DNA of 64,000 nucleotides from assembly GCA_034432595.1 (NCBI GenBank), contig DAOUBT010000033.1, positions 2,353 through 66,352 of the forward strand. The letters are read 5' to 3'. Below are positions 34,717 to 55,163 of the stretch, piece after piece; position 1 is the stretch's first letter, and each line of letters begins with the position of its first letter. The translations under genes were made by a program, and so were the position numbers. Origin of the DNA: Anaerolineae bacterium (GTDB lineage: Bacteria > Chloroflexota > Anaerolineae > B4-G1 > SLSP01). The notes under the pieces were generated by a model, which had not been told where the DNA came from, did not search any database, and worked only from the letters and a program-made list of their open reading frames with translations.

Positions 34717-34999
34717 GATGTGCTAAACTCTAACCAACAGCACGATAACTTGGGGTCATGCATAGGCGATGAGAGCGGTTGAGGCGTTGGCGTGAACAGG
34801 CGCGCTTGAAAGCGGTCGGACGTTTCCCCCATACGCCTCATGACTCTCTATCCATAACAGGCACAGGCGAACGGAGTCGGTTCGCCCTGGGCAAGAATAC
34901 GAAGCCGGCAGGTGACCTTTCGGGAGCACACGAAAAGCCGGTTGTAACACAGCGCTGTCCTTTCTGGGACGAGCAGAGGCGGTCAGGTAGGGTGTGAGC

Positions 35000-40715: not shown

Positions 40716-40856
40716 GAGTTCCTCCTTGTTTTCCCCTGGATTGGTAACTTCTGGGTAACCGCTCTCTGGTATTATACACTCATCCCACATAGGGGGAGTC
40801 CTTTAGCCTGCCAACAGCACGGCAAACCACATTTTTTAACCACACAGGAGGTCAAG

Positions 40857-41621
40857 ATGCGTCTGAAGGATAAGGTTGCGCTCATTACCGGCGGTGCCGC
40901 GGGTATTGGTAAGGCCACGGCTCTGGTGTTCGCGCGCGAGGGCGCGAAGGTGGTCATTTGCGATGTGAACGAGGAAGCCGGGCGGGAGCTGGTCGCTCAG
41001 CTTGGTCCGGATGCCGCCTTCTACAAGGTCAACGTCACGGACCGGCAGGAGGTGCAGGCCTGGGTGGATGATGTGATTGCGCGTTACGGGCGCGTGGATG
41101 TGCTGGTCAATAATGCCGGCATCACGCGCGATGGCCTGTTCGTCAAGATGAAGGATGGTGAGCTGGTCAAGCAGATGGAGGAAGCGGCCTTCGATAGCGT
41201 GGTGGCGGTTAACTTGAAGGGGGTCTTCAATTGCGCGCAGGCGGTGACGCCTTACATGATTCGGCAGGGCGGCGGGGTCATCATCAACGTGTCCTCGGTG
41301 GTGGCGCTGTACGGGAACTTCGGTCAGACCAACTATGTGGCCACCAAGGCGGGCGTGATTGGGATGACGAAGGTGTGGGCGCGCGAGCTGGGCCGCTACG
41401 GGATTCGCGTCAACGCCGTGGCGCCGGGCTTCATCGCTACCGAGATGGTGCAGAAGATGCCCGAAAAGGTGCTGGAGGATATGAAGGCGCACACGCCGCT
41501 GGGTCGTCTGGGGCAGCCGGAGGACATCGCCAACGCTTTCCTCTGGCTGGCCAGTGATGAGGCTTCTTTCGTCCATGGGGCCACCATCAGCGTGGATGGT
41601 GGGATTGTCATCGGTTCGTAG
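40857..41621 (+). CDS. fabG: 3-oxoacyl-ACP/acetoacetyl-CoA reductase (classical SDR)
   Basis: Motifs TGGAAGIG, NNAGITRD, NFGQTNYVATKAG and VAPGFI. Confidence 0.85.
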   Translation: MRLKDKVALITGGAAGIGKATALVFAREGAKVVICDVNEEAGRELVAQLGPDAAFYKVNVTDRQEVQAWVDDVIARYGRVDVLVNNAGITRDGLFVKMKDGELVKQMEEAAFDSVVAVNLKGVFNCAQAVTPYMIRQGGGVIINVSSVVALYGNFGQTNYVATKAGVIGMTKVWARELGRYGIRVNAVAPGFIATEMVQKMPEKVLEDMKAHTPLGRLGQPEDIANAFLWLASDEASFVHGATISVDGGIVIGS

Positions 41622-41630
41622 GAGGGAAAG

Positions 41631-42635
41631 ATGAGCCGCTACGCTAAGATTATCGCCACCGGGCGTTATGTCCCGGAAATCGAAATGACCAATGCCCATT
41701 TTGCCGAGCTGATGGGCAAGGTCAATCCGAAGCTTGCAGAAGTGGTGGGCAAGTTTGAGGAGAGCAGCAACATCAAAACGCGCTGGTACGCTCCCGATGA
41801 CTGGGTCACGTCTGACCTGGCGGTGCGCGCGGCGCAGGATGCGCTGGAAGAGGCCGGGATGAAGCCGGAAGACCTCGACCTTATCATTCTGGGCACGGAT
41901 AGCCCGGATTACATCACGCCGGCAACCTCGGTGGTGGTGCAGCACAAACTGGGCGCGAAGCGCGCCGGGACGTTTGATGTGGGCTGCGCCTGCGCTTCTT
42001 TCCCCACCGGTCTGAACATTGCCGCGGGCCTGCTGGCTTCTAACCCCCACATGAAGTATGTCATGGTCATCGGCGCGTACATGATGCACAAGCTTTCCGA
42101 TTGGCAGCATGACGTGATGGCCTTCTTCTACGGTGACGGCGCGGGGGCGGCTATCCTCACCGCCGACGAGAAACCCGGTTTCGTCAGCTCGACCTTCTTT
42201 GCGGATGGCTCCTATCACAAGTATTGGGGGATTTATTCCGGCGGCACGTATGAACCGGCAACGGTGGAGAGTGTGCAGGCCGGACGGACGCAGGTGCGCT
42301 TCATCACGCCCTTCCCGCCGGAGGTGAATAACGCCGGCTGGCCGCAGCGCGTGCGCGAGCTGGCGGCGAACGGCGGTTTCGCCCTGGAGGATATTGACCT
42401 GATTATCTTCACGCAGGTGCGGTACAACAGCATTGAAATCGTGATGAACGATCTTGGGCTGCCCATGACGAAGGCGCACTGGATCATGGATAAGTGGGGC
42501 TACACCGGTTCCGCCTGCCTGCCCATGGCTTTTGATGATGCGCGCGAGCAGGGCAAGGTCAAGCCGGGTGATCTGGTGCTCTTCATCGGTTCTGGCGTGG
42601 GCTACAATCAGGCCGGCGCAGCTTTCATCATGTAG
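41631..42635 (+). CDS. KAS III (FabH-like) protein with a non-canonical active site
   Basis: FDVGCACASF (Cys121) and GDGAGA. FTQVR replaces HQAN and GYTGSA replaces GNTSAA. Confidence 0.85.
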   Translation: MSRYAKIIATGRYVPEIEMTNAHFAELMGKVNPKLAEVVGKFEESSNIKTRWYAPDDWVTSDLAVRAAQDALEEAGMKPEDLDLIILGTDSPDYITPATSVVVQHKLGAKRAGTFDVGCACASFPTGLNIAAGLLASNPHMKYVMVIGAYMMHKLSDWQHDVMAFFYGDGAGAAILTADEKPGFVSSTFFADGSYHKYWGIYSGGTYEPATVESVQAGRTQVRFITPFPPEVNNAGWPQRVRELAANGGFALEDIDLIIFTQVRYNSIEIVMNDLGLPMTKAHWIMDKWGYTGSACLPMAFDDAREQGKVKPGDLVLFIGSGVGYNQAGAAFIM

Positions 42636-42737
42636 CATGGGGCAAGGGGATAAGAGTCCGCTCGTCCTGATTCGTCACGGCGGGCGATGGGACGGGCGGC
42701 GCTTGGTCCCGCATGCGAGGCAAGGGGCGGTGAAACG

Positions 42738-44036
42738 ATGAACGTCAAATCCATGTATGCCGAAAAGTTGATTTCCATCCCCGAAGCGGTGGGGATGGTG
42801 CAATCGCATCAACGCATTGCTGCGGCGATGTGCGCCTCGGAGCCGGTGGGGTTGCTTTCCGAGCTGGAGAAGCACGCTGACCGGTTAGAGGATGTGCATG
42901 TCTTCATGTGCCTGCCGATGCGCGAGTACGGCTTCTACACGAAGCCGGAGATGAAGGGGCATTTCTTCCTGGAAAACTGGTTCTACGGCGTGGCCGATCG
43001 CAAAGCGCATTCGCTGGGGATGGTATCCTACATTCCCAACAATTTGCACCGCGCGGGCACGGATCGCATCCACGCGGGCGGGGTGAATATCTTCTGGGGG
43101 ACGGCGACCCCGCCCAACAGCCGCGGCATCATGTCGCTTTCGACCTCGCTGGTGTTCGAGCGGCAATTGCTCGATGCTGCTGACCTCGTCATCCTGGAAA
43201 TCAATCCAAATCTGCCCTGGACCCTGGGGGATACGCAAATCAGCGTGCGGGATGTGGATTACGTGGTGGAGTGCGAGACGCCGCTGGTTGAGTTGCAACC
43301 CATTGCACCGACCGACGTGGAAGCAACCATTGGACAGTACATTGCCGACCTCATCGAGGACGGCAGCACCATTCAGCTTGGCATCGGCGGTATCCCCAAC
43401 GCCATCGCGCAGAGCCTGTACGGCAAGCATGACCTGGGCGTGCATACCGAAATGTTCACCGATGGCATGGTGGATTTGTTCGAGGCGGGCGTCATCACCG
43501 GGCGCAAGAAGACGCTGTGGCCGAACAAAATGGTGGGTGCTTTTGCCCTGGGCACGCGCAAGCTCTACGACTTCATCCATAACAACGTGGCGGTGGAATT
43601 CCAGCAGGGCAAAGTGACGAACAATCCCTACATCATGGGGCAAAACGCAAAGATGGTGAGCATCAACACCGCGCTACAGGTGGATGTGTTGGGGCAGGTG
43701 TGCTCGCAAAGCATCGGCTCGATGCACTTCAGCGGCACGGGAGGGCAACTCGATACGCATCGCGGCGCGCAGATGTCCGCCGGTGGCCGCGGCATCATCG
43801 CCTTGCGCTCAACCGCGCGCAACGGCACGGTCTCCACGATTGTGCCGCAGCTCACGCCCGGCGCCGAGGTCACCGTGCCGAGTCAGGACGTGGATACGGT
43901 TGTCACCGAGTTTGGCGTGGCGGAGCTGCGTGGGCGCTGCCTCAAGGACCGCGTGGCGGCGCTCATCAACATTGCGCATCCCGATTTCAGGCCCTGGCTG
44001 TGGGAAGAAGTAAAGCGGCTGGGGATTATCGCTTAA
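42738..44036 (+). CDS. Acetyl-CoA hydrolase/4-hydroxybutyrate CoA-transferase family
   Basis: Motifs TIQLGIGGIPNA, LGVHTEMF, SGTGGQLD and DTVVTEFGVA. Confidence 0.9.
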   Translation: MNVKSMYAEKLISIPEAVGMVQSHQRIAAAMCASEPVGLLSELEKHADRLEDVHVFMCLPMREYGFYTKPEMKGHFFLENWFYGVADRKAHSLGMVSYIPNNLHRAGTDRIHAGGVNIFWGTATPPNSRGIMSLSTSLVFERQLLDAADLVILEINPNLPWTLGDTQISVRDVDYVVECETPLVELQPIAPTDVEATIGQYIADLIEDGSTIQLGIGGIPNAIAQSLYGKHDLGVHTEMFTDGMVDLFEAGVITGRKKTLWPNKMVGAFALGTRKLYDFIHNNVAVEFQQGKVTNNPYIMGQNAKMVSINTALQVDVLGQVCSQSIGSMHFSGTGGQLDTHRGAQMSAGGRGIIALRSTARNGTVSTIVPQLTPGAEVTVPSQDVDTVVTEFGVAELRGRCLKDRVAALINIAHPDFRPWLWEEVKRLGIIA

Positions 44037-44059: not shown

Positions 44060-44371
44060 ATGTCCGAGCTTCTGGGAAAATGGGAACAGCCGGAGGGGCA
44101 ACCCTATCCGGGTTTGTGGTTTGAATTCCGCCCGGATGGGACGTTCCGCGCCGAATTGCCTTCCATGGGGATTACGTCCGGCGGGACCTATCGCGCCGCG
44201 CAGGGCGAGATTGACATCGAGCAGACTGAACACACCTTTGGCATTGTCGGCACGTTCCTGGGGCGCTATCAGGTCGAGGGCGATACGCTCGTGATGACTC
44301 TGGGGGACCCCGGCGCGCCGCGTCCGGAGTTGGAGCATCGCAACAAGCGCCTTTACAAAAAAGTGAGGTAG
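44060..44371 (+). CDS. Small hypothetical beta-barrel-like protein (103 aa)
   Basis: Strong RBS GGAGGTG; LLGKW..FEFRPDGTF..GTY..G.Y.VEGDTL pattern typical of lipocalin-like barrels. Confidence 0.7.
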   Translation: MSELLGKWEQPEGQPYPGLWFEFRPDGTFRAELPSMGITSGGTYRAAQGEIDIEQTEHTFGIVGTFLGRYQVEGDTLVMTLGDPGAPRPELEHRNKRLYKKVR

Positions 44372-44374
44372 GGC

Positions 44375-45544
44375 GTGTTGAGGCTGTTCCGGCGTGCTCA
44401 ACCGACCCCCAAATCGCTTGCGCCGTTGCGCATCGGCGTGGTGGCGGCGCGCAGCGGGATGTGGGCCGTCTATGGGGAAGCGGCTGTGCGCGGCCTTGAG
44501 CTGGGTCTGGATTATGCCACCGCCGGCACGTACAGCGTGGCCGGGCGCGCCTTGCGCCTCCTCATCGAGGATGATGGTGGCAAAGAGCAGAAAGCGCAGG
44601 AGCTGGCAACGCGCCTGTTGAAGGATGAGGGCTGCGAGCTGCTGGTGGGATGCACCATCAGTCAGACGAGTTTGCAGTTGGTGCGCGTGGCGCAGTCCCT
44701 GGAGCGCCTGGTGCTCATCAGTGTGGCGGCGACGGACGTGCTCACGGCGGAGTGGTTCACGCCCTACATGTTCCGCACCGCCGCCACAACCGCTCAGGAT
44801 GCAGCCGCGGGCGGGCGTTATGCGGCGCAGCACCTGGGTCGGCGGGTGGCCTTCATTTCGCCCGATTCGCTGTGGGGGCAGCAGAGCCGCGCGGCGTGGT
44901 GGAAAGTGCTCGCGCAACAGGGCGCCGACATTGTCGGAGATGTGCTTGTCCCCCCACAAACCACGGATTTCCGTCCCTTTTTGCACGACATCCTGTCCCA
45001 ACGCCCGGATGTGCTCATCGCCTTTTGGGCGGGCAGCCTGACGCGCTATCTGCTGACGCAGATGCGCGAGGTGGGCCTCTTTGAAGCGATGCACGTCGCC
45101 GGAAATCTGGTGGATCGAGAGACGCTGCACGCGGTCGGCCTGGCTCCGGCAGGGATGGTGTGCGCGGCGAAATACCGCTACTCGTTCCCGCAGAACCCCA
45201 TCAATAGCTGGTTGGTGCTGCGTCATCAGGAACGGTACGGCGAACCGCCCGACCTGTTCAGCGAAAGTGGTTTCACGGCGGGTGTGGCACTGGTCGAGGC
45301 GCTCAAGCGCAGCAATGGCGACGCGCGCGCCGACGTGCTGATTCCGGTGCTCGAAGGGCTGACCTTCGAGGGTCCCAAAGGTCAGTACACCTTGCGCGCA
45401 CAGGATCATCAGGCGCTGCAGCCCATGTACGTGGCGGAGTTGCGGCCTGCACTGGAGGGCACTGTGTGCGAACCCTACCTGCTGACCGAAATCAGCGCGG
45501 AACAGGCCGCTCCGCCGGTGGCGGTGGAATCTCGTCATTCATAG
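44375..45544 (+). CDS. Liv/AmiC-class substrate-binding-fold protein lacking a signal peptide
   Basis: Similar to 49255..50622 (PPDLF, LEGLxFEGPKG, DH..QP). No hydrophobic leader, and an in-frame stop lies just upstream. Confidence 0.8.
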   Translation: MLRLFRRAQPTPKSLAPLRIGVVAARSGMWAVYGEAAVRGLELGLDYATAGTYSVAGRALRLLIEDDGGKEQKAQELATRLLKDEGCELLVGCTISQTSLQLVRVAQSLERLVLISVAATDVLTAEWFTPYMFRTAATTAQDAAAGGRYAAQHLGRRVAFISPDSLWGQQSRAAWWKVLAQQGADIVGDVLVPPQTTDFRPFLHDILSQRPDVLIAFWAGSLTRYLLTQMREVGLFEAMHVAGNLVDRETLHAVGLAPAGMVCAAKYRYSFPQNPINSWLVLRHQERYGEPPDLFSESGFTAGVALVEALKRSNGDARADVLIPVLEGLTFEGPKGQYTLRAQDHQALQPMYVAELRPALEGTVCEPYLLTEISAEQAAPPVAVESRHS

Positions 45545-45558
45545 AAAGGAGTTAACTC

Positions 45559-46605
45559 ATGGAAAAGCCTCAACCTTTACCCGGTGTGACCACGGCGCTG
45601 GTGAGTACGCCGCGCCTGACGCAGCACGTTTACTTCACCGGCCCGGATGATGGCATTCCCGTGATTTTCCTGCACGGCAATTTTTCCGCGGCGCTCTATT
45701 GGGAAGAGACAATGCTGGCGCTGCCCGCAGGCTTTCGCGGTATCGCTCCCGATTTGCGCGGCTACGGTTGGACGGAGGATAAACTGATTGACGCCACGCG
45801 CGGGCTGCGCGACTGGAGCGATGATGTGCTGGCTCTGATGGACGTGCTGGGCCTGGAACGCGCGCACGTGGTGGGGTGGTCCATGGGGGGCGGCATCGTC
45901 TATCAGCTCCTCACGGATGCGCCGCAGCGGTTTTTGAGCGCTGTGCTCATTGCGCCGGTTTCGCCTTACGGCTTCGGCGGGACTAAGGACGTGGCCGGGA
46001 CGCCCTGTTACGAGGATTTCGCCGGGTCCGGGGGCGGGGTGGTCAATCCGGTTTTCGTGCAGCGCATTCAGATGCAGGATCGCGGCACGGATGACCCCAA
46101 CTCGCCGCGGAACGTCATCAACGCCTTCTACTACAAGCCGCCTTTCCGCGCCGCCCGCGAGGAGGATTTCCTCACCGCCTCTTTAGCGGAAAAGACTGGC
46201 CCTCAGCAATATCCGGGCGACTCCGTGCCCTCGCCGAACTGGCCCCATGTGGCGCCGGGGGTGTGGGGACCGGTCAATGCCTGGTCGCCCAGGTACGTGG
46301 CGGCGGACGTGGCGCGCTTCATCGCTGCCGAACCCAAGGTGCCCATCCTGTGGATTCGCGGCGATAGTGACATGATTGTGAGCGATATGTCCATGTTCGA
46401 TTTTGGCGCTTTGGGCAAACTGGGGTTTGTGCCCGGCTGGCCTGGGGATGAGGTCTATCCGCCGCAGCCGATGATCGCGCAGACGCGCGCCGTGCTGGAG
46501 CAATATGGGCCTTTTGAGGAGCGCGTCCTGGCCGACTGCGCCCACAGTCCGCACATCGAGAAGCCCGAAGCGTTCAACGCGCTTTTCCATGCTTTTTTGA
46601 AGTAG
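45559..46605 (+). CDS. Alpha/beta hydrolase, PhaZ-like (GWSMG lipase box)
   Basis: Motifs FLHGN, DLRGYG, VGWSMGG and CAHSPH. Confidence 0.8.
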   Translation: MEKPQPLPGVTTALVSTPRLTQHVYFTGPDDGIPVIFLHGNFSAALYWEETMLALPAGFRGIAPDLRGYGWTEDKLIDATRGLRDWSDDVLALMDVLGLERAHVVGWSMGGGIVYQLLTDAPQRFLSAVLIAPVSPYGFGGTKDVAGTPCYEDFAGSGGGVVNPVFVQRIQMQDRGTDDPNSPRNVINAFYYKPPFRAAREEDFLTASLAEKTGPQQYPGDSVPSPNWPHVAPGVWGPVNAWSPRYVAADVARFIAAEPKVPILWIRGDSDMIVSDMSMFDFGALGKLGFVPGWPGDEVYPPQPMIAQTRAVLEQYGPFEERVLADCAHSPHIEKPEAFNALFHAFLK

Positions 46606-46611
46606 GCCGCC

Positions 46612-47409
46612 ATGCCGCAGATTGAAGTCAATGGGACTCGTTTGTACTACGAATGGCACGGCCCGGAGGGCGCGCCTGTGGTGGTGCTCATCAACGGGGT
46701 GCTGATGAGCACGGGAAGTTGGGCTTTCCAGACACCGGTGCTGGCGCAGCGCTACCGCGTCCTGCTTTACGATTGCCGGGGACAGGGGCAATCCGCGCAT
46801 CCGAACGGGCCGTACTCCATGGCCCAGCATGGCGAGGACCTGGCCGCCCTGTTGGAGGCGCTGGGTGTCCCCGCCGCACATCTGGCGGGCATTTCCTATG
46901 GCGGCGAAATTGCGCAGTGGATGGGAATCCACATCCCTGAAAAAGTGCGTTCTTTGTTCCTTTCCTCGACGGTCAGTGAAGTGCGCCCGCTGCTACGGGC
47001 CAGGGTTGAAGCCTGGATGGCGGCAGCGCAACGCCGCGACGGGGAGTTGCTCTTCCGCGCGTCGGTGGCGGATAACTTCAGCGAGCCGTGGTTGCGCGCG
47101 CATCCCGATTGGGCCGCGTTGTCCATTCCGCGCTATCAGCAGTTGGATTTCGACGCGGTTATGGCGCTGTGTGAGGCGTTTTTGGCGATAGACTGGACGG
47201 CGGAGCTGCGCGCCATCAAAGCGCCGACGCTGGTGGTGGTCGGCGAGCTGGACACGCTCAAGCCACTTACGCCTTACGCGCGCCTGCTGGTGGAGCACAT
47301 TCCGGGCGCGGAGCTGATGGTGCTGGGCGGAGCCGGTCATGCCTGCTGCATCGAGACGCCGCGCGCCTGGAATGCCGCCCTGCTGGGCTGGCTGGCTTTG
47401 CAAGCTTGA
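46612..47409 (+). CDS. Alpha/beta hydrolase (enol-lactonase-like)
   Basis: Motifs YDCRGQG, GISYGG and GAGHA. Confidence 0.85.
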   Translation: MPQIEVNGTRLYYEWHGPEGAPVVVLINGVLMSTGSWAFQTPVLAQRYRVLLYDCRGQGQSAHPNGPYSMAQHGEDLAALLEALGVPAAHLAGISYGGEIAQWMGIHIPEKVRSLFLSSTVSEVRPLLRARVEAWMAAAQRRDGELLFRASVADNFSEPWLRAHPDWAALSIPRYQQLDFDAVMALCEAFLAIDWTAELRAIKAPTLVVVGELDTLKPLTPYARLLVEHIPGAELMVLGGAGHACCIETPRAWNAALLGWLALQA

Positions 47410-47490
47410 GAAAACGGCCACGCGCAGGCCGTTGTGGCTAAACAAGCGGCAAGTAGGTACAACTAAACTTTTTACTTGAAGGAGGACACG

Positions 47491-48747
47491 ATGCGTCACA
47501 AACGACCCGGTGTGGCGATTGTCGGTGCGGGGATGACGAAGTTCGGCGCTTTCCCCGGTCTGGCATCGCGCGACCTGTTTGTTGAGGCCTATCAAGAGAT
47601 GCTGGCCTCGGTGGATAAGGGCTTCGATCCACAGGAGATTGAAGCGATTTACGTGGGGAACTTCAGCAACGAGTTGCTGGAGGGACAGGGGCACCTGGCG
47701 CCGCTCATGGCGGACTGGGTGGGCCTGACCCCGCGCCCGGCGACGCGCGTCGAGGATGCGTGCGCGAGTGGCAGCGCTGCCCTGCGGCAGGGCATCCTGG
47801 CTATCGCCTCCGGCCTCTACGATGTGGTGCTGGTGGGAGGTGTGGAGAAGATGACCGACCTGCCCACCGCGCGCGTGACGGATACGTTAGCCACAGCGGC
47901 GGACGTGACCTATGAGGTGAGCGCCGGTTTTACTTTCCCCGGCCTGTACGCCGCGTTGGCTACCGCGTACATGCACGCTTACGGCGCGACGCCGGACGTG
48001 TTCTTGCAGGTGGGCATCAAGAATCACAACAACGGTGCCCTCAATCCCAAGGCGCAATTCGGACAGCGCATCACCGACATTATGGAAGCGCGCAAAGCGG
48101 CGGCCATCAAGAAGGGTAAGCCCGCGCCAACCTGGGCGAGCGAGTGGGACTTCCTCACCGACGACCGTGCCAATCCCATGATTGCCTGGCCTTTGCGCCT
48201 GTACGACTGCTCGCCCATCTCCGACGGTGCGGCCACGGTGCTGTTGGTGCGTGAGGACCTGGCCTCGCGCTTCACCGACAAGCCGATTCACATCATCGGC
48301 AGTGGGCAGGCAAGCGATACGGCCACGCATGACCGTCCGACGCTCACCGGTCTGCCTGCTGCGCGCAAGGCGGCGGAGCTGGCTTATGCTATGGCCGGTG
48401 TTACCCCTGCTGACATTCAGTTGGCCGAAGTGCACGATTGCTTTACTATCGCTGAGATCATCGCTTCAGAGGATTTGGGCTTCTTTGCGCCGGGTGAGGG
48501 CTGGCGCGCAGCGCAGGAAGGGCGCACAGCACGCAATGGCGATCATCCCATCAACACCTCCGGCGGCCTCAAATCCAAGGGCCATCCCGTTGGCGCGACG
48601 GGCATCGGACAGGTCATCGAAATCTGGAAGCAGTTGCGCGGTGAAGCGGGCGAGCGACAATTGCCGGGCGAACCGCACCTGGGCCTGACGCACAACGTCG
48701 GGGGCACGGGACAGACCTGCATTGTGCACATTTTCGAGCGGAGGTAA
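47491..48747 (+). CDS. Thiolase, SCP2/archaeal type
   Basis: Motifs VEDACASG, AEVHDCF, GHPVGATG and HNVGG. Confidence 0.9.
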   Translation: MRHKRPGVAIVGAGMTKFGAFPGLASRDLFVEAYQEMLASVDKGFDPQEIEAIYVGNFSNELLEGQGHLAPLMADWVGLTPRPATRVEDACASGSAALRQGILAIASGLYDVVLVGGVEKMTDLPTARVTDTLATAADVTYEVSAGFTFPGLYAALATAYMHAYGATPDVFLQVGIKNHNNGALNPKAQFGQRITDIMEARKAAAIKKGKPAPTWASEWDFLTDDRANPMIAWPLRLYDCSPISDGAATVLLVREDLASRFTDKPIHIIGSGQASDTATHDRPTLTGLPAARKAAELAYAMAGVTPADIQLAEVHDCFTIAEIIASEDLGFFAPGEGWRAAQEGRTARNGDHPINTSGGLKSKGHPVGATGIGQVIEIWKQLRGEAGERQLPGEPHLGLTHNVGGTGQTCIVHIFERR

Positions 48748-48749
48748 GC

Positions 48750-49178
48750 ATGAACACGGCACCTTTTACGGCGACGAGTTTTTACACGTTTTTGCAGGAG
48801 CATAAACTCATGGCCGCGCGCTGCACGCGCTGTGGTGCGCTTTACCTGCCGCCGCGCCCCCTGTGCCCGCATTGTGTGGATGCGCCCATGGAGTGGGTGG
48901 AACTCTCCGGCAAGGGCGAGGTGGTGGCTTACAGCGTCATCGCCATTGGGTTAACCATGATGCTGGAAGCGGGCTATAGCCGCGAGAATCCCTACGTCTC
49001 GGCTATGGTGCGCTTAGCCGAAGGACCGGTCATCAGCGCGCAGCTTGTTGGGGTGGACGTGCAGCACCCCGAAAGCATCAAGATCGGAATGCCGGTGCGC
49101 ATGACATTTGTCGAGCGCGGTCCGCAGGAGGCGCGCAAGGTGTATCTGGCGTTTGAGCCTTGGGAAGGAGGTGAGTAG
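48750..49178 (+). CDS. DUF35 Zn-ribbon/OB-fold protein
   Basis: CTRC..PRPLCPHC, then LSGKGEVVAYS and IGMPV. Confidence 0.92.
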   Translation: MNTAPFTATSFYTFLQEHKLMAARCTRCGALYLPPRPLCPHCVDAPMEWVELSGKGEVVAYSVIAIGLTMMLEAGYSRENPYVSAMVRLAEGPVISAQLVGVDVQHPESIKIGMPVRMTFVERGPQEARKVYLAFEPWEGGE

Positions 49179-49254: not shown

Positions 49255-50622
49255 ATGAAACAGTTGTCACGTTTGTTCCTTTTGGTGATGGTGGCCGCGC
49301 TGGTCTTGAGCGGCTGCGTCCAGAAAGCGACGCCCACCGCAACCCCGACCCCCACAGAGGCTCCGACGGAGAAGCCGACGGAGCCGCCGACCGAGCAGCC
49401 GACGGCGGAACCGACTCAGGAGACGTATGGCCCCGTTCTCAAAATCGGCATGATCTCGATGCAGTCGGGGGTGATGGCCCTCTACGGTCAGCAGCAGTAT
49501 CGCGGCTTCATGTTGGGCCTGGAATACATGTCCGGCGGCAAGACGGACGATCAGGGACGCTACATCATTGCCGGGCGTCCGGTGGAAGTGCTGCTGCGCG
49601 ACGATGAAGGCAATCCCGAAAAGGGCGTGGCCCTGGCGCGGGAGCTGATTGAAAAGGACGGCGTCGAGCTGCTGCAGGGGCCGGTTAGCTCCGCGGTGGC
49701 GGTGGCGCTGACCACGGTGGCGCAGGAAAACAAGATCATCCTCATGATTGACCCGGCGGCTTCGGCGTTCCCGACCGGCCCGAACTTCAATCCTTACGTC
49801 TTCCGCACCAGCCGCACCAACTACGATGATGTGCTGGTCATTGCCAAGTATCTGGTGGAAAACGTGGGCAAGAAGTTCGCGCATATCGGCATTGACAACG
49901 CCTTTGGGCGTGGTAGTGGCGCTGCTCTGGCTTACGCCGTGGGCAAGTACGGTGGTGAGGTGGTCGCCGACATCTACGCGCCTTTCGACACCACCGATTT
50001 CACCCCCTACATTCAGCAGGCGATGGATTCCGGCGCTGACTGCCTGTTCCTGACCTGGGCGGGCACGGGCTACGTCACTCTCTTCCAGCAGCTCGGCGAC
50101 CTGGGCGCGTTGGAGAAGATGCGCGTGGCGACGGGGTACGGCGATAACGCCTCCTTCGCTGCAGTTTACGGCACGGCGCTGGGGCAGATTGGTCTCAACG
50201 TCTATCACTACACCGTCCCCAAGAACCCCATCAACGATTGGCTGACGCAGCGCCACCTGGAGCTGTACAAGGAGCCGCCGGATCTCTTCACCGCGGGCGG
50301 TATGGCTTCGGCGATTGCCCTGGCTACGGCGCTGGAGAAGACGGGTGGCGACACGAACGCCGACAAGATGATTGCCGCGCTCGAAGGCCTCAAGTTTGAG
50401 GGTCCCAAGGGCACTTACTACATCCGCCCGGAGGATCACGTCTGCGAGCAGCCGATGAACATCCTCAAGCTGGTGAACCTCGATCCTGACCTGGATGACG
50501 ACGGCATTCCGGAGTACAAGTTCTTTGAGACCGTGTACGTGAGCGAGTACAACGAGTTGGGCGTGCCCTGCACTCTGACCGGCGAGTACGCTGCACGCTG
50601 CGGCAACCTGCCCAAGCCGTAA
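49255..50622 (+). CDS. Liv-class ABC transporter substrate-binding lipoprotein
   Basis: Lipobox LSGC, Pro/Thr/Glu linker, and Liv SBP fold. Confidence 0.9.
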   Translation: MKQLSRLFLLVMVAALVLSGCVQKATPTATPTPTEAPTEKPTEPPTEQPTAEPTQETYGPVLKIGMISMQSGVMALYGQQQYRGFMLGLEYMSGGKTDDQGRYIIAGRPVEVLLRDDEGNPEKGVALARELIEKDGVELLQGPVSSAVAVALTTVAQENKIILMIDPAASAFPTGPNFNPYVFRTSRTNYDDVLVIAKYLVENVGKKFAHIGIDNAFGRGSGAALAYAVGKYGGEVVADIYAPFDTTDFTPYIQQAMDSGADCLFLTWAGTGYVTLFQQLGDLGALEKMRVATGYGDNASFAAVYGTALGQIGLNVYHYTVPKNPINDWLTQRHLELYKEPPDLFTAGGMASAIALATALEKTGGDTNADKMIAALEGLKFEGPKGTYYIRPEDHVCEQPMNILKLVNLDPDLDDDGIPEYKFFETVYVSEYNELGVPCTLTGEYAARCGNLPKP

Positions 50623-50635
50623 GGGCAAGACACGG

Positions 50636-50665
50636 GGGAGACAGGCCCACGCAGGCCTGTCTCCC
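50636..50665 (+). terminator. Stable hairpin after the SBP gene (terminator or mRNA stabiliser)
   Basis: GGGAGACAGGCC-CACGCA-GGCCTGTCTCCC; weak U tract. Confidence 0.6.
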
Positions 50666-51029
50666 TTCATCCACGGATGCCTCAACGCGAATTTTCAGGC
50701 CTTGACGGGTTAACATGGATGGCTTTACGCAAGCAGTGGAAACCCGTCCAACCTGAGTTAATCCGCGTCCTGAACATCCAGGGCTGAACGTATACGGTAA
50801 GAGAAACAGGACCGGTTCGGTCCGCTTTTACTTGTGATAAAGCATCAACGCAGGCAGGACCTGGGCTTTTTAACCGTCAGGGATGGGTACGTGGACAGCC
50901 TGGAGGGGTAGCCCGGCTGTGGCTGGACCGCTGCGCTTTCTACTTTCCGGGCGTTTTTCCTGTGCAAGCTCAATTCCGGCGATGCATGGGCGCAAAGAAG
51001 CCGTTACGATTTTTGCTTTCGGAGAAGCT

Positions 51030-51821
51030 ATGACGACAGAGACAAAGCCCGACATTATTTTAGAAGGCCGCCATCTGACCAAGGTTTTTGGGGGGCTGGT
51101 GGCCGTGGATCAGGTGAGTTGTCAAATCCGTGCCGGTACCCTCCATGCTATTATCGGTCCCAATGGCGCGGGTAAGACGACGCTGTTTAATCTGTTGAGC
51201 CGAACGTTTCCGCCCACGTCGGGGCAGGTGTTTTTCCGTGGGCGCGATATTACCCACCTCCCCACGCATCGCGTGGCGCATCTGGGATTGGGACGCTCGT
51301 TTCAGATTACCAATATCTTCCCCAATTTGACCGTGCTGGAGAATATTCGCCTTGCTGCGCAGGCGCGGGGTGGGGATAACTTCAAGTTCTGGCGGCCTTA
51401 TACGCATTTTCAGACCTACATCGAAAAAGCCCTTGCTATTGCGGCGCTGGTTGGCCTGCAGGGACGCGAAGGGGCCTTAGCGCGCAATCTGGCGCACGGC
51501 GAGAAGCGCAAATTAGAGCTGGGCATCATGCTGGCGAGCGATCCCGAAGTCCTGCTGCTGGACGAGCCGACCGCTGGCATGTCTTCGGAGCAGGTCCCGG
51601 AGCTGATTGAGGTCATCCGCGCCATTATGGCGCAGGGGGGGAAGACCGTCGTGCTCGTTGAACACCGCATGGACGTGGTGATGAACGTCTCCGATGTCAT
51701 CACGGTGATGCATCAGGGGCGCGTGCTGGCCGAAGGTACGCCACAGGAGGTGGCGCGCAATGAGCTGGTGCAGAAGGCCTATTTGGGCGCGCTGTACGGC
51801 GACTTTGGCGCTTCGGCATAG
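51030..51821 (+). CDS. Liv-class ABC ATPase (LivG-like)
   Basis: Motifs GPNGAGKTT, SFQITNIF and LLDEPTAG. Confidence 0.9.
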   Translation: MTTETKPDIILEGRHLTKVFGGLVAVDQVSCQIRAGTLHAIIGPNGAGKTTLFNLLSRTFPPTSGQVFFRGRDITHLPTHRVAHLGLGRSFQITNIFPNLTVLENIRLAAQARGGDNFKFWRPYTHFQTYIEKALAIAALVGLQGREGALARNLAHGEKRKLELGIMLASDPEVLLLDEPTAGMSSEQVPELIEVIRAIMAQGGKTVVLVEHRMDVVMNVSDVITVMHQGRVLAEGTPQEVARNELVQKAYLGALYGDFGASA

Positions 51822-51830
51822 GGAGGGGAT

Positions 51831-52577
51831 ATGGCACAACCGGATTCCAATGACATCATCCTGTCCGTGGAGGGCATTCACACCTACATCGGACAGTTTC
51901 ACATTCTGGAGGGGATTTCGCTTCAGGTGCGGCGAGGCAGTATCACGGTTTTGCTGGGACGCAATGGCGCGGGCAAGACCACCACGCTCAAATCCATTTT
52001 GGGCCTCACCCCGCCGCGTTCAGGGCGCGTGCTACTGGATGGAGCTGAGATTCAGGGCAAACACGCTTATGACATCGCGGCCATGGGTATCGGGTATGTT
52101 CCGGAGCACCGCGCCATTTTCCGCAATCTGAGCGTGGGCGAGAACCTGCGCATTGCCGAGCGCAAAAAGGGCGACCTGGAGCGCAAAGCCGATTTCATCT
52201 TTCGCCTGTTCCCCGACCTCAAGCGTCTCTACAAATTGAGCGGCTATCAACTTTCGGGTGGGCAGCAGCAGATGCTGGCTATTGCCCGCGCCATGGTGGC
52301 GGATAACAAACTGCTCTTGATTGACGAGCCTAGCGAGGGCCTGGCGCCGGTCATCATTGAGCAGATGATGGACGCGATCCGCGAGCTGAGTGCTACTACT
52401 ACCGTGCTTCTGGTGGAACAAAATTTTCTCATGGCCAGCCGTTTAGGCCAGGATTACTACATCATTGACGACGGCAAAACCGTGCATCAAGGGCGCATGG
52501 AGGACCTGGTGCATGATGAGGCCCTCATCCACCAATATCTGGGCGCAAGCGTCCGCCGGGCAGGAGGTGCAGCATGA
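51831..52577 (+). CDS. Liv-class ABC ATPase (LivF-like)
   Basis: Motifs GRNGAGKTT, LSGGQQQMLAIARA and IDEPSEGLAP. Confidence 0.9.
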   Translation: MAQPDSNDIILSVEGIHTYIGQFHILEGISLQVRRGSITVLLGRNGAGKTTTLKSILGLTPPRSGRVLLDGAEIQGKHAYDIAAMGIGYVPEHRAIFRNLSVGENLRIAERKKGDLERKADFIFRLFPDLKRLYKLSGYQLSGGQQQMLAIARAMVADNKLLLIDEPSEGLAPVIIEQMMDAIRELSATTTVLLVEQNFLMASRLGQDYYIIDDGKTVHQGRMEDLVHDEALIHQYLGASVRRAGGAA

Positions 52578-54067
52578 GAAAATCGTCCGTATGGCGGGAG
52601 TATCAGGCGTTGTGGATAGGGTTGGGCCTGGTCCTTGTGCTGATTGGCCTGGCCTGGCGCGTCATCGGCACGCAGGCTTTCATCCGCACCACGCTTTCGG
52701 GCCTGACGCTGAGTGCGCTTTTCTTCATGGTGGCAGCGGGTCTGACCCTGGTGTTTGGCCTGATGGATGTCCTGAACTTCGCGCAGGGTTCCATGTTTAT
52801 GGTGGGCGCTTACATAGGCTGGCAGTTTTACACCAACCCCACCTTCCTTTTTGGCCTGGCGCCGCTGGCGCTGGTGTTCATCGCGGGTTTGACGGGCATG
52901 GCGCTTTTCTATCCCGTGGTGCACACGCTGCGCCTCACGCCGGAGCAGCAAAAAGGGCTGCGTGCGGCCCTCATCACCCTGGCCTTGGCCCTGGTAGTGG
53001 CGGGGCTGTGGGGCTACGACGTGCGTGACCTGGCCAAAACGGCGATGGTCTCTTCCATGGTGGCCTCCAATCTCCTGGCTGAAGCTTCGCCGCAGGAACC
53101 TCTGGCGCGCTTCTGGCTGCGTCCCCTGTTGGTTTTTCTGGGCGGATTGGCGTTCGCCGTGGCGCAGGCCCGTCCTGGGGATGAGACACACGTGGTGTCG
53201 CGCAGCGCGACACGACGCAGCGCCCTCATCTTGCCCGGCCTGCTGCTGCTCACGGCGCTGAGCGTGCTCGTGCGCGAATCCGGGCCGATTGCCGTGCTGC
53301 TGTTGAACGGGAACGTGCGCTTTGTCCTGGCGCTGCTCACGAGTTTGTTGGTCGGGTTTGGACTGGGGGTGCTCATCGAAAATCTTTTCATCAGCCCCCT
53401 TTACACCCGTCCCCTGTATCAGATTATCATCACCATGGGCCTGGCGTATGTCATCGGCGAGCTGGTGCAGTTGCTCTGGGATCCGCTCCCTTACGCCATG
53501 GACCGTCCGCCGCTGTTCGCGCAGCCGGGCAAGGCCGCCAACGTGGCCGAGTGGCTGCAGAAGGGTAGCTCGACGCTGGATATTTTCGGCGTGACCTTCC
53601 CCACCTATCGCCTGTTCATTATTGTCCTGGGCGTGCTGATGTTCCTGGCCCTCACGGCGGTGATGAAGTACACGCGCCTGGGCATGATTATCCGCGCGGG
53701 CGTGCAGGATCGCGAGATGGTGGAGGCGCTGGGCATCAACGTCAAGCGCGTTTTCACCTTTGTGTTCGCTTTGGGGACTGCGCTGGCCGCGTTGGGTGGC
53801 ATCGGTGCGGCGCCGTTTATGCCGGTGGAGCCGGTGATGGGTGACCGTTTCCTCATGCAGGGCTTCATCACGGTGGTCATCGGCGGCATGGGCAGCACGA
53901 GCGGCGCGGCCATTGGTGCCCTGCTGTTGGGCCTGGCGCGCGCCTTTGGTGACTATCTCGCGCTCAAATACGGCCTCACCCCCTCCATTTCCGAGGCTTC
54001 GACCGTGGTGATCATGGCAATTGTGTTGCTGGCGCGCCCAACCGGGCTGCTGGGCAAGAAGGAGTAG
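52574..54067 (+). CDS. Liv-class permease (LivH-like) with a large internal insertion
   Basis: Motifs GLTLVFGLMDVLNFAQG, TRLGMIIRA and VVIGGMGS; 497 aa. Confidence 0.88.
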   Translation: MRKSSVWREYQALWIGLGLVLVLIGLAWRVIGTQAFIRTTLSGLTLSALFFMVAAGLTLVFGLMDVLNFAQGSMFMVGAYIGWQFYTNPTFLFGLAPLALVFIAGLTGMALFYPVVHTLRLTPEQQKGLRAALITLALALVVAGLWGYDVRDLAKTAMVSSMVASNLLAEASPQEPLARFWLRPLLVFLGGLAFAVAQARPGDETHVVSRSATRRSALILPGLLLLTALSVLVRESGPIAVLLLNGNVRFVLALLTSLLVGFGLGVLIENLFISPLYTRPLYQIIITMGLAYVIGELVQLLWDPLPYAMDRPPLFAQPGKAANVAEWLQKGSSTLDIFGVTFPTYRLFIIVLGVLMFLALTAVMKYTRLGMIIRAGVQDREMVEALGINVKRVFTFVFALGTALAALGGIGAAPFMPVEPVMGDRFLMQGFITVVIGGMGSTSGAAIGALLLGLARAFGDYLALKYGLTPSISEASTVVIMAIVLLARPTGLLGKKE

Positions 54068-54071
54068 GCGT

Positions 54072-55163
54072 ATGCGGACCTCATTCAAGCATGTGTGGGA
54101 AAAGCTCTCAACCTGGGCCGGGCAGCAAAAGGTGCCGCTGCTGGTGCTGGCCGGTTTCATTCTCTTCCCCTACCTGTTTGCTCTGTTTACCGGTACCCCA
54201 CCGGCGGAAGGGGCCAACAAGTTCTGGCAGGGGCATTTCATCTCCATGTTTATCCTGGCTGTTTATGCCATGAGCTATGATTTGCTGCTGGGCTACACGG
54301 GGATTTTGACCTTCGGTCATGCGGCGTTCTTCGGCAGCGGGGCCTACGCCATGGCGTTATTCCTCAAGCACGTGGCGCCGCAGTTCAGCGCGAATTACCA
54401 GATTGTGCTGGGACCGTGGAACATCACGGACGGGATGTTGCTGTTGGTGGGCTTTTTGCTGGCGATGCTGGTGGCCTCTTTGATAGGGGTGCTCTTCAGC
54501 GTGGTGTCGGCGCGCGTGCACGGCGCTTATTTCGCCATGATTACCCTGGCCATGGCGCAGGCCTTGCACATCCTTTCCAAGAGTGCGGATTTTGTGAAGT
54601 GGACCGGCGCGGATGAGGGTCTGCACGGGGTGCCCGTGCCCGCTTTCCTCAATCCCACGCAATATCGTTTGCGCTTCTACTTTGTCGCTTTGGCCTTTGC
54701 GCTGGTGATGTACGTCATCACGCAGCGATTGGTCAACTCGCCCACGGGGCGCGTCTTTGTGGCGCTGCGCGAAAACGAAAGCCGCGTGCTGATGATTGGC
54801 TACAATCCGCGCACCTATCGCCGCATCGCTTTCACCGCCGCGGCGCTCCTTGCTGGCATGGCGGGCGCGCTCTACGCGGTGTGGACGATGAGCGCCACGC
54901 CCACCATGACCGGCATGGGCATGACGGTGAACGCGCTCATTATGACCATTCTCGGTGGCATTGGCACGCTCTACGGGCCGATGTTGGGCGCTGCTCTGAT
55001 GGAATTCCTGGGGCACTACTTCTATCAGTGGTTTGGCGCGCGCTGGCCTCTGGTGTTTGGTGTGCTCTTTATCCTGCTGGTGCTCTTCCTGCCCTACGGC
55101 ATCGTGGGCACGTGGCGTCTGCGCATGGCGGAATGGAAGCTTAAACGTAAGGCGAGGATGTGA
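54072..55163 (+). CDS. Liv-class permease (LivM-like)
   Basis: Motifs LLGYTGILTFGHAAFFG, SPTGRVFVALRENE and ILGGIGT. Confidence 0.9.
   Translation: MRTSFKHVWEKLSTWAGQQKVPLLVLAGFILFPYLFALFTGTPPAEGANKFWQGHFISMFILAVYAMSYDLLLGYTGILTFGHAAFFGSGAYAMALFLKHVAPQFSANYQIVLGPWNITDGMLLLVGFLLAMLVASLIGVLFSVVSARVHGAYFAMITLAMAQALHILSKSADFVKWTGADEGLHGVPVPAFLNPTQYRLRFYFVALAFALVMYVITQRLVNSPTGRVFVALRENESRVLMIGYNPRTYRRIAFTAAALLAGMAGALYAVWTMSATPTMTGMGMTVNALIMTILGGIGTLYGPMLGAALMEFLGHYFYQWFGARWPLVFGVLFILLVLFLPYGIVGTWRLRMAEWKLKRKARM

What the first reader, a model, noticed from the sequence alone, without database searches (positions are those of the whole stretch)
41631..42635. KAS III homologue with Cys-Thr-Tyr in place of the Cys-His-Asn triad
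Seen: Cys121 is retained in a CxC context, Thr261 sits in FTQVR and Tyr291 in GYTGSA, with the same 30-residue spacing as FabH His244/Asn274. Known: His/Asn drive malonyl decarboxylation, and KAS III variants such as CerJ and DpsC act as acyltransferases. Inference: a non-decarboxylative acyltransferase, ester-forming enzyme or thiolase-like enzyme with new chemistry.
Basis: partly seen in the sequence, partly recalled or inferred. Interest (0 to 1): 0.6.

Follow-up and report, generated by a model that had tools for sequence, protein, structure and literature searches.

The report
FabH-like enzyme with rebuilt active site
A gene that databases label as the fatty-acid starter enzyme FabH belongs to a widespread, unstudied sister group that keeps the reactive cysteine, has replaced the other catalytic residues, and sits in a nutrient uptake-and-breakdown operon, so the label is probably wrong and its reaction is still unknown.

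Summary
The ORF at 41631-42635 (+) encodes a 334-aa protein with a KAS III fold (AlphaFold2 pLDDT 96.5; TM about 0.9 to FabH). It has Cys121, with Thr261 under the FabH His and Tyr291 under the FabH Asn. This is a clade signature. C, T and Y are fixed in 199-200 of 200 close homologues, and the group is monophyletic against Cys-His-Asn FabHs.

Other pocket positions are also changed. The most notable is an invariant Asp90, which aligns with the catalytic Glu of HMG-CoA synthase.

The protein is not a housekeeping FabH:
- It scores below all curated FabH cut-offs.
- It lies far from fabD-fabG, acpP and plsX-fabF.
- It co-exists with true FabH in Acidobacteriota.
- It occurs in relatives with no detectable FabF.

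Its conserved partners are an NAD(H)-type FabG-like SDR, alpha/beta hydrolases (one natural fusion), a CoA transferase or ligase, an SCP-x thiolase with DUF35, and importers.

Best reading: a non-decarboxylating acyl-Cys enzyme acting on polar short acyl-CoAs in a catabolic operon. The exact reaction is unknown.

The scan has flagged this family on other DNA before. I class it as a new variant of a known kind, interest about 0.55.

The parts
41631..42635 (+). KAS III-fold protein (334 aa) of the Asp-Cys-Thr-Tyr clade; this is the finding
   Evidence: Pfam ACP_syn_III plus ACP_syn_III_C. Below every NCBIfam FabH cut-off. AF2 pLDDT 96.5. Foldseek TM about 0.9 to FabH.
41898..41900 (+). Asp90 codon: clade-specific acid at the position of the HMG-CoA synthase catalytic Glu
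   Evidence: D in 17/17 representatives and 200/200 close homologues. Never acidic in 63 Cys-His-Asn representatives. Aligns with E86 of the genome's own HMGCS.
41991..41993 (+). Cys121 codon: retained acyl-accepting nucleophile
42411..42413 (+). Thr261 codon, in place of the FabH His
42501..42503 (+). Tyr291 codon, in place of the FabH Asn
40857..41621 (+). FabG-like SDR of NAD(H) type (Asp36 after beta-2), 9 nt upstream of the KAS gene
   Evidence: Pfam and NCBIfam. 329 bits to PDB 4NBW and 293 to 4NBU. Present in 75 of 80 related loci.
42687..44036 (+). CoA transferase of the 4-hydroxybutyrate / butyryl-CoA:acetate family; the true start is probably the ATG at 42738
   Evidence: Present in 35 of 80 loci; Acidobacteriota carry an AMP-ligase instead.
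44060..44371 (+). Small 103-aa protein with no Pfam family
   Evidence: Homologues in 22 of 80 loci.
44375..45544 (+). Liv/urea-type solute-binding protein paralogue without an obvious signal peptide
45559..46605 (+). Alpha/beta hydrolase, 348 aa; its N-terminal part is most like intracellular PHB depolymerases and esterases
   Evidence: Present in 19 of 80 loci.
46612..47409 (+). Alpha/beta hydrolase, 265 aa, PcaD/esterase-like; this type is fused to a clade KAS in P0274
   Evidence: Present in 60 of 80 loci.
47476..48747 (+). SCP-x/archaeal-type thiolase with Cys96, HDCF and His370 intact
   Evidence: Present in 56 of 80 loci.
48750..49178 (+). DUF35 protein (zinc ribbon plus OB fold), the usual thiolase partner
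   Evidence: Present in 30 of 80 loci.
49255..55163 (+). Lipoprotein-type solute-binding protein, two ABC ATPases and two permeases (Liv-type importer)
55314..58538 (-). BTAD/TPR (MalT/SARP-like) regulator, convergent here and upstream of the operon in relatives
   Evidence: Homologues in 21 of 80 loci.

Best explanation
The gene encodes a catalytically active member of an uncharacterised, monophyletic KAS III-fold clade. It is not FabH. Its active site has been rebuilt from Cys-His-Asn into Asp90-Cys121-Thr261-Tyr291, and further pocket positions have become polar (Ser/Thr96, Asn233, Cys296, Ser321). It works on CoA thioesters, not ACP. It belongs to a conserved operon that imports an organic acid or ester, frees the acid with alpha/beta hydrolases, attaches CoA with a transferase or ligase, and interconverts 3-hydroxy and 3-oxo-acyl-CoA with an NAD(H)-dependent FabG-like SDR. 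Proposed mechanism (inferred, not shown): a short, oxygenated acyl group is loaded on Cys121. Asp90 shuttles the alpha-proton, as Glu does in HMG-CoA synthase. Tyr291 and Thr261 act as acid/base and hydrogen-bond donors to the beta-oxygen or carbonyl. The result is a non-decarboxylative C-C bond cleavage or formation (retro-aldol or retro-Claisen type). CoA then releases the acyl group. I put the general claim (an active, non-decarboxylating, CoA-dependent enzyme in a catabolic operon) at about 0.7. I put the specific C-C/enolate mechanism at about 0.3.
For: Shown:
- KAS III fold with Cys121 and the Gly-rich loops intact.
- The His-to-Thr and Asn-to-Tyr changes are fixed across a clade that spans 33-100% identity.
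- Asp90 is invariant in the clade, absent from 63 Cys-His-Asn representatives, and aligns with E86 of the genome's own HMGCS. In the same alignment C121 matches C118, T261 matches H241 and Y291 matches N273. Glu/Cys/His is the HMGCS triad (PMC11522927; PMC6392133).
- Other pocket columns change to polar residues.
- The SDR partner is found in 75/80 loci, has Asp36 (the NAD(H) type), and scores 329 bits to 4NBW.
- A CoA transferase in Anaerolineae is replaced by an AMP-ligase in Acidobacteriota. This points to acid activation as the conserved step.
- A PcaD-like hydrolase is co-located in 60/80 loci and fused in frame to a clade KAS in P0274.
- An importer is always nearby, either a Liv-type ABC system or a TonB-dependent receptor.
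- No ACP, malonyl transferase or fab gene lies in the operon.
Precedent: thiolase-fold aldolases (Ltp2, Sal) use Tyr as the catalytic base (PMC12329534).
Against: No member of the clade has been assayed, and no paper on it was found. I had no model coordinates, so the proximity of Asp90, Thr261, Tyr291 and Asn233 to Cys121 rests on alignment to FabH and HMGCS alone. The operon already contains a competent thiolase, so a second C-C cleaving enzyme is not obviously needed. The substrate is unknown. Thr and Tyr hydroxyls could in principle still form an oxyanion hole for a thioester enolate, so condensation is not excluded. Distant clade members sit in reduced contexts that constrain the pathway only weakly.
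Confidence: 0.4

Rival explanations
1. CoA-dependent ester cleavage (or the reverse O-acyl transfer). Cys121 attacks the ester bond of an imported hydroxy-acid oligomer, such as (R)-3-hydroxybutyrate dimers or trimers derived from PHB. Tyr291 protonates the leaving alcohol, and CoA takes over the acyl group. The ester bond energy is thereby conserved as a thioester, which would benefit energy-limited anaerobes.
For: The operon holds 2-3 esterase-type hydrolases, and one is most like PHB depolymerases. The FabG-type (R)-specific, NAD(H)-dependent SDR, the CoA transferase or ligase, and an acetoacetyl-type thiolase together make a full 3-hydroxybutyrate route in which the KAS is otherwise surplus. 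The pocket is polar. A hydrolase-KAS fusion exists. TonB receptors in Acidobacteriota suit oligomer uptake. From my own knowledge, FabH His/Asn mutants keep transacylase activity.
Against: There is no precedent for a KAS III enzyme running ester to thioester, and the reaction is uphill by roughly 10 kJ/mol. Known KAS III O-acyltransferases keep the His. The Asp at the HMGCS base position is not explained as well. No PHB-specific gene is conserved: the secreted esterase at 39789-40790 has no homologue in any of the 80 loci.
Confidence: 0.2
2. It is still a condensing enzyme. Thr261 and Tyr291 hydroxyls form an alternative oxyanion hole, and the protein carries out Claisen condensation, either decarboxylative with malonyl-CoA or head-to-head as in OleA, in a biosynthetic pathway.
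For: The Acidobacteriota clusters have an OleABCD-like family content: KAS, AMP-ligase, alpha/beta hydrolase and SDR. The adjacent SDR is FabG-like. BTAD/SARP-type regulators lie nearby.
Against: A CoA transferase, which cannot act as a beta-lactone synthetase, replaces the ligase in Anaerolineae at the same operon position. Importers are always attached. No ACP, malonyl-CoA or carboxylase genes are present. OleA keeps Cys-His-Asn (own knowledge) and matches only weakly, with E about 1e-17 over the N-terminal part. The SDR is a classical 254-aa SDR, not the OleD type.
Confidence: 0.08
3. It substitutes for FabH. In this reading it is an acyl-CoA:ACP transacylase that primes FabF in Anaerolineae, which lack a canonical FabH.
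For: No canonical FabH was found in the window's genome, in 18 relatives of its family, in Bellilinea caldifistulae or in one complete Chloroflexota chromosome. In G000 and these other Anaerolineae genomes, the clade protein is the only FabH-like hit found. The neighbouring SDR scores at the FabG cut-off.
Against: Ten of the 19 FabH-less genomes of the family lack the clade protein. Six of the 9 genomes that have it show no FabF. Acidobacteriota and an Oxalobacteraceae genome have both a true FabH and the clade protein. The housekeeping fabD-fabG, acpP and plsX-fabF genes lie on other contigs. The columns of the FabH ACP-docking Arg249 and Lys214 are not basic or not conserved (the residue roles are from my own knowledge).
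Confidence: 0.05
4. It is a non-catalytic structural subunit, like PhlA or PqsB, that scaffolds the thiolase/DUF35 pair or the SDR.
For: KAS III-fold subunits without activity exist in thiolase/DUF35 complexes (PhlA; PMC6392133). A thiolase plus DUF35 pair lies in the same operon.
Against: Cys121 and a set of polar pocket residues are invariant over 200 homologues, which is unlike PhlA, where the Cys is lost. The thiolase is missing from many loci that keep the KAS. The protein is FabH-type, not HMGCS-type.
Confidence: 0.05

Closest known systems
FabH / KAS III (beta-ketoacyl-ACP synthase III; e.g. PDB 4dfe, 6x7r, 4ryb, 1hn9)
   Same: Same fold (TM about 0.9, 27-31% identity) and both Pfam domains. 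The Cys nucleophile sits at the helix N-terminus, and the GDGAGA and C-terminal Gly loops are present.
   Different: His becomes Thr and Asn becomes Tyr. Asp90, Ser/Thr96, Asn233, Cys296 and Ser321 replace apolar or small residues. Scores are below the curated cut-offs (195 against 249; 170 against 292). There are no fab neighbours, and occurrence is independent of FabF and FabH.
HMG-CoA synthase (Glu-Cys-His; archaeal type encoded on contig C23 of the same genome)
   Same: KAS III-type fold. An acidic residue lies about 31-32 residues before the Cys, in a T/S-[DE]-S-P motif. It is associated with an archaeal-type thiolase plus DUF35.
   Different: The acid is Asp, not Glu, and the His is replaced by Thr. 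Overall the sequence is FabH-like: the HMGCS NCBIfam models score 38-64 bits against cut-offs of 244-353.
KAS III-like enzymes with degenerate triads (PqsBC, CerJ, DpsC)
   Same: KAS III fold used for non-FabH acyl transfer or condensation. PqsC appears among the PDB matches at E about 1e-11.
   Different: From my own knowledge, those enzymes retain a His (Cys-His, Cys-His-Asp, Ser-His-Asp) and work in secondary-metabolite biosynthesis. Here no His is present, and the context is uptake and breakdown.
Thiolase-fold aldolases Ltp2 and Sal
   Same: Members of the thiolase superfamily in which canonical catalytic residues were exchanged for Tyr acting as acid/base. They are catabolic and associated with DUF35 (PMC12329534).
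   Different: They belong to the SCP-x thiolase branch, not KAS III, and Ltp2 has no catalytic Cys. There is no detectable specific sequence relationship.
OleABCD olefin / beta-lactone pathway
   Same: Same family content in the Acidobacteriota versions of the operon: KAS III-like, AMP-ligase, alpha/beta hydrolase and SDR.
   Different: OleA keeps Cys-His-Asn plus a trans Glu (own knowledge). The ligase is interchangeable with a CoA transferase, importers are attached, and the SDR is of a different type.

Membership tests
FabH / KAS III (NF006829, TIGR00747) | KAS III fold with ACP_syn_III and ACP_syn_III_C domains | tested here: met
   Pfam 66 and 80 bits. Foldseek TM about 0.9 to FabH structures.
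FabH / KAS III (NF006829, TIGR00747) | Score at or above the curated family cut-off | tested here: not met
   NF006829 scores 195 against a cut-off of 249, and TIGR00747 scores 170 against 292. All other FabH equivalogs are further below.
FabH / KAS III (NF006829, TIGR00747) | Cys-His-Asn catalytic triad | tested here: not met
   Cys121 is kept, His is replaced by Thr261 and Asn by Tyr291.
FabH / KAS III (NF006829, TIGR00747) | Basic ACP-docking residues (E. coli Arg249, Lys214; roles from own knowledge) | tested here: inconclusive
   The column five residues after Thr261 is N/P/S/G/K. The Lys214 region aligns to Pro/Glu/Asn. This was judged by alignment only, without coordinates.
FabH / KAS III (NF006829, TIGR00747) | Linkage to, or co-occurrence with, type II FAS genes | tested here: not met
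   fabD-fabG, acpP and plsX-fabF lie on other contigs. Six of the 9 related genomes that have the protein show no FabF.
HMG-CoA synthase | Glu-Cys-His triad | tested here: not met
   An acid (Asp90) and Cys121 align with E86 and C118 of the genome's own HMGCS, but His241 aligns with Thr261. The HMGCS models score far below their cut-offs.
OleA (head-to-head condensing thiolase) | Cys-His-Asn plus Glu from the partner subunit; ole gene set | tested here: not met
   His and Asn are absent. The position of the trans residue is Ser/Thr96. OleA structures match only at E about 1e-17 over residues 48-148. The ligase is replaced by a CoA transferase in Anaerolineae.
KAS III-like acyltransferases (CerJ, DpsC type) | Nucleophile plus a retained His as base; biosynthetic cluster with a sugar or ACP acceptor | tested here: not met
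   There is no His at the triad position. The context is an importer plus catabolic enzymes. I had no CerJ or DpsC sequences to align directly.
Thiolase / DUF35 / KAS III-fold complexes (archaeal HMGCS complex, PhlACB) | Co-encoded SCP-x/archaeal-type thiolase and DUF35 protein | tested here: met
   Thiolase at 47476-48747 (NF004720, 462 bits, above its cut-off). DUF35 at 48750-49178 (PF01796, PF12172). The pair is present in only 30-56 of 80 related loci.
Thiolase / DUF35 / KAS III-fold complexes (archaeal HMGCS complex, PhlACB) | Physical complex of the KAS III-fold subunit with thiolase and DUF35 | not testable with these tools
   This needs co-purification or a structure. See Tried and rejected for the one modelling attempt.

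The most novel reading that the evidence does not exclude
The clade is a new catalytic type within the thiolase superfamily: an Asp-Cys-Thr-Tyr enzyme. It would perform either covalent retro-aldol or retro-Claisen cleavage of beta-oxygenated acyl groups, or CoA-dependent thiolysis of hydroxy-acid ester bonds. The second reaction would be an energy-conserving depolymerisation of PHB-type oligomers, analogous to phosphorolysis. Either way it would define a previously unrecognised, widespread catabolic pathway in Anaerolineae and Acidobacteriota.
Probability: 0.3. Interest if true: 0.8.

Novelty: new variant of a known kind. Interest (0 to 1): 0.55.

Why it matters
At least 598 genomes in a collection holding one genome per species carry this protein, among them cultured Bellilinea. 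In public databases the homologues that carry a source name are labelled ketoacyl-ACP synthase III or 3-oxoacyl-ACP synthase; most carry no name. On the evidence here that label is wrong, and it distorts lipid-metabolism reconstructions for Anaerolineae and Acidobacteriota, two abundant groups in sludge, sediment and soil. The rebuilt Asp-Cys-Thr-Tyr site is a natural experiment in how the thiolase and KAS fold acquires new chemistry. The conserved operon marks an unidentified nutrient, probably a hydroxy-acid or its ester, that these organisms import and break down. A cultured host, a compact operon and clear point mutants make the question directly testable.

Tried and rejected
1. Complex modelling. 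I submitted the KAS (as partner) against thiolase plus DUF35, each as an alignment. The result was 'no answer', with scores of 0.00 and no controls run. I do not use this for or against binding.

2. Fusions. P0273 and P0275 appear as SDR-KAS 'fusions', but both contain out-of-frame junk linkers. I rejected them as frameshift artefacts. Only P0274 (hydrolase-KAS) looks genuine.

3. Ole-like biosynthesis. I considered this because of the family content in Acidobacteriota. I rejected it mainly because a CoA transferase takes the ligase's place in Anaerolineae and importers are always attached.

4. FabH replacement. I considered this because the genome and its family lack a canonical FabH. I rejected it on distribution.

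5. PhlA analogy. PhlA is HMGCS-derived and has lost its Cys (PMC6392133), so it is a poor model for this protein.

6. Phloroglucinol or triacetate catabolism. The enzyme logic fits, but no specific evidence supports it: the SDR is FabG-like and no cyclohydrolase is present.

7. Substrate hints from the binding proteins. The best PDB relatives (3nnd, 3n0x) carry no ligand annotation in the hit table.

8. Literature. Four searches found no paper on this clade.

9. Coordinates.

10. Short contigs. Several distant representatives sit on contigs too short to give context.
Full report
**Observation**

The ORF at 41631-42635 (+) is open and encodes 334 residues. It has a strong Shine-Dalgarno sequence and starts 9 nt after the stop codon of the upstream SDR gene. 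Counting confirms Cys121 (G-C-A-C121-A-S), Thr261 (F-T-Q-V-R) and Tyr291 (G-Y-T-G-S-A).

Pfam finds both KAS III domains. All NCBIfam FabH models score well below their curated cut-offs: NF006829 gives 195 bits against 249, and TIGR00747 gives 170 against 292. HMMER alignments to solved FabHs put Thr261 under the His of 'HQAN' and Tyr291 under the Asn of 'GNTSAA'. An AlphaFold2 model built from 115 sequences is confident (pLDDT 96.5). Its best structural matches are FabHs, at TM about 0.9 and 27-31% identity.

**A clade, not an accident**

A search of 1.84 billion cluster representatives, followed by MAFFT alignment, separates the hits cleanly.
- Every full-length representative above about 36% identity, and one at 33%, carries xTQ(V/I)(N/R), GYTGSA and SGxG.
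- Nearly all of the remaining hits carry HQAN, GNTSAA and FGxG; a few have other variants.

On a maximum-likelihood tree the Cys-Thr-Tyr rows form one clade (SH-aLRT 95), apart from 67 other rows, nearly all Cys-His-Asn. Among 200 close homologues (59-100% identity), Cys121 and Tyr291 are invariant and Thr261 is present in 199 of 200.

The best 80 come from Anaerolineae, including cultured Bellilinea caldifistulae, from several classes of Acidobacteriota, and from one Oxalobacteraceae genome.

**More than the triad has changed**

I compared 17 clade representatives with 63 Cys-His-Asn representatives and with the genome's own archaeal-type HMG-CoA synthase. These positions differ:

| Position | Clade | Cys-His-Asn group |
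|---|---|---|
| Asp90 | invariant | S/V/I/A/L, never acidic |
| Ser/Thr96 | S or T | mostly F/M/Q/L/I |
| Asn233 | invariant | mostly Ala |
| Trp237 | near-invariant (16/17, one Tyr) | M/L/F/I/V |
| Cys296 | near-invariant (16/17, one Ser) | Ser or Thr |
| Ser321 | invariant | mostly Phe |

In that alignment the four key residues match the genome's own HMGCS as follows:
- Asp90 aligns with Glu86.
- Cys121 aligns with Cys118.
- Thr261 aligns with His241.
- Tyr291 aligns with Asn273.

Glu/Cys/His is the catalytic triad of HMG-CoA synthases (PMC11522927; PMC6392133). From my own knowledge, position 96 corresponds to FabH Phe87' and OleA Glu117-beta, a residue that reaches into the partner subunit's active site.

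The pocket has therefore become markedly polar and has gained a candidate general base.

**Not a housekeeping FabH**

The window's genome (2.76 Mb, 92% complete) has fabD-fabG on contig C71, acpP on C53 and plsX-fabF on C69. Its only other KAS III-like gene is the HMGCS of a mevalonate cluster.

None of the 19 genomes of its taxonomic family has a canonical FabH, whereas all 12 genomes of the two sister families do. Bellilinea and one complete Chloroflexota chromosome also lack it.

The clade protein does not fill this gap.
- Only 9 of the 19 family genomes have it.
- Six of those nine show no FabF.
- Two Acidobacteriota genomes and an Oxalobacteraceae genome have both a true FabH and the clade protein.
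- By alignment, the columns of the FabH ACP-docking residues are not conserved as basic.

**Context**

All of the following window genes are on the + strand, and most gaps are 2-76 nt:
- SDR
- KAS
- 4-hydroxybutyrate-type CoA transferase
- a 103-aa protein with no family
- a solute-binding protein paralogue
- two alpha/beta hydrolases
- an SCP-x/archaeal-type thiolase and a DUF35 protein
- a second solute-binding protein
- two ABC ATPases and two permeases

A BTAD/TPR regulator is convergent at the far end.

I searched the 80 related loci with tblastn:

| Partner | Loci out of 80 |
|---|---|
| SDR, mostly directly upstream, 54-83% identical | 75 |
| PcaD-like hydrolase | 60 |
| Thiolase | 56 |
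| CoA transferase | 35 |
| DUF35 protein | 30 |
| ABC importer | 28 |

Acidobacteriota show TonB receptor, SDR, KAS, hydrolase, AMP-ligase, hydrolase, thiolase, hydrolase. Distant members at 37-48% identity still sit next to an SDR, hydrolases, a ligase or CoA transferase, and a Liv-type importer.

Two points follow.
- A CoA transferase and an AMP-ligase displace one another at the same place in the operon. The conserved step is therefore activation of a free acid to its CoA ester, not beta-lactone synthesis as in Ole pathways.
- P0274 is an in-frame fusion of a PcaD-like hydrolase (34% identical to the window's 265-aa hydrolase) with a clade KAS. There is no stop codon and no plausible internal start between the two parts. 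The hydrolase and the KAS therefore work together.

**The SDR partner**

The SDR has Asp36 after beta-2, the mark of NAD(H) preference. It matches PDB 4NBW at 329 bits and 4NBU at 293 bits. From my own knowledge, these entries are NADH-dependent FabG-type acetoacetyl-CoA reductases. The genome's true FabG is elsewhere. The partner enzyme thus interconverts 3-oxoacyl and (R)-3-hydroxyacyl thioesters with NAD(H).

**Interpretation**

Shown: the protein is a conserved KAS III-fold enzyme. It has a retained nucleophile and a rebuilt polar pocket. It is unlinked to FAS II and embedded in an operon for import, hydrolysis, CoA activation and 3-hydroxy/3-oxo interconversion.

Inferred: it forms an acyl-Cys121 intermediate from a short, oxygenated acyl-CoA and performs a non-decarboxylative step. 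Two mechanisms fit best.
- (a) HMGCS-like enolate chemistry run as C-C cleavage or formation. Asp90 acts at the alpha-carbon, and Tyr291/Thr261 act at the beta-oxygen. Thiolase-fold aldolases that use Tyr as base are a precedent (PMC12329534).
- (b) CoA-dependent cleavage of an ester bond in a hydroxy-acid oligomer. This would explain the many esterases and why the KAS is otherwise surplus in a complete 3-hydroxybutyrate route.

I give (a) about 0.3 and (b) about 0.2. I consider continued condensation, FAS priming and a pure scaffold role each unlikely.

**Comparison and novelty**

The protein fails the FabH, HMGCS, OleA and CerJ/DpsC membership tests on catalytic residues. It is best described as a new variant within the KAS III fold.

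Four literature searches found no study of the clade. Earlier notes of this scan on other genomes reached the same general reading. This report adds:
- the Asp90/HMGCS correspondence;
- the wider polar remodelling of the pocket;
- the NAD(H) type of the SDR;
- the hydrolase-KAS fusion;
- the lack of association with FabF.

Noticed in passing
Whole genome G000 and relatives (G001-G018, G031, G032): No canonical FabH was found in any of the 19 genomes of the window's family, in Bellilinea caldifistulae or in a complete 4.9-Mb Chloroflexota chromosome. All 12 genomes of the two sister families have one. Nine of the 18 family relatives also show no FabF. How these Anaerolineae start or obtain fatty acids is unexplained.
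   Followed up: partly
G000 contig C23, locus L002:212-3255 (minus strand): A mevalonate-pathway cluster: archaeal-type HMG-CoA synthase (353 aa), an SCP-x/archaeal-type thiolase (385 aa) and the end of an HMG-CoA reductase-like gene. A second thiolase of this type lies in the window's operon.
   Followed up: partly
L100:9001-10875: A 624-aa in-frame fusion of a PcaD-like alpha/beta hydrolase with a Cys-Thr-Tyr KAS (P0274), directly downstream of an AMP-ligase. It was seen once only.
   Followed up: partly
L093:327-2319: Two Cys-Thr-Tyr KAS paralogues in tandem (330 and 329 aa, 10-nt gap). This suggests heterodimers in some lineages.
   Followed up: partly
window 34994-39106 (+): A 1370-aa histidine kinase with five or six GAF domains lies just upstream of the operon region. 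It has no homologue in any of the 80 related loci.
   Followed up: no
window 39789-40790 (-): A divergently transcribed esterase (BD-FAE / hormone-sensitive-lipase type) with a weak match to a Tat-signal profile (PF10399, below its cut-off). It has no homologue in any of the 80 related loci, so it is probably not part of the conserved operon.
   Followed up: partly
window 58586-60196 (-): A 536-aa protein combining a LuxR/GerE DNA-binding domain with Kelch repeats, an unusual regulator architecture.
   Followed up: no
window 44375-45544 (+): A solute-binding-protein paralogue inside the operon has no hydrophobic signal or lipobox at its N-terminus, unlike the second copy at 49255-50622. It may be cytoplasmic, acting as a sensor or carrier.
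   Followed up: no
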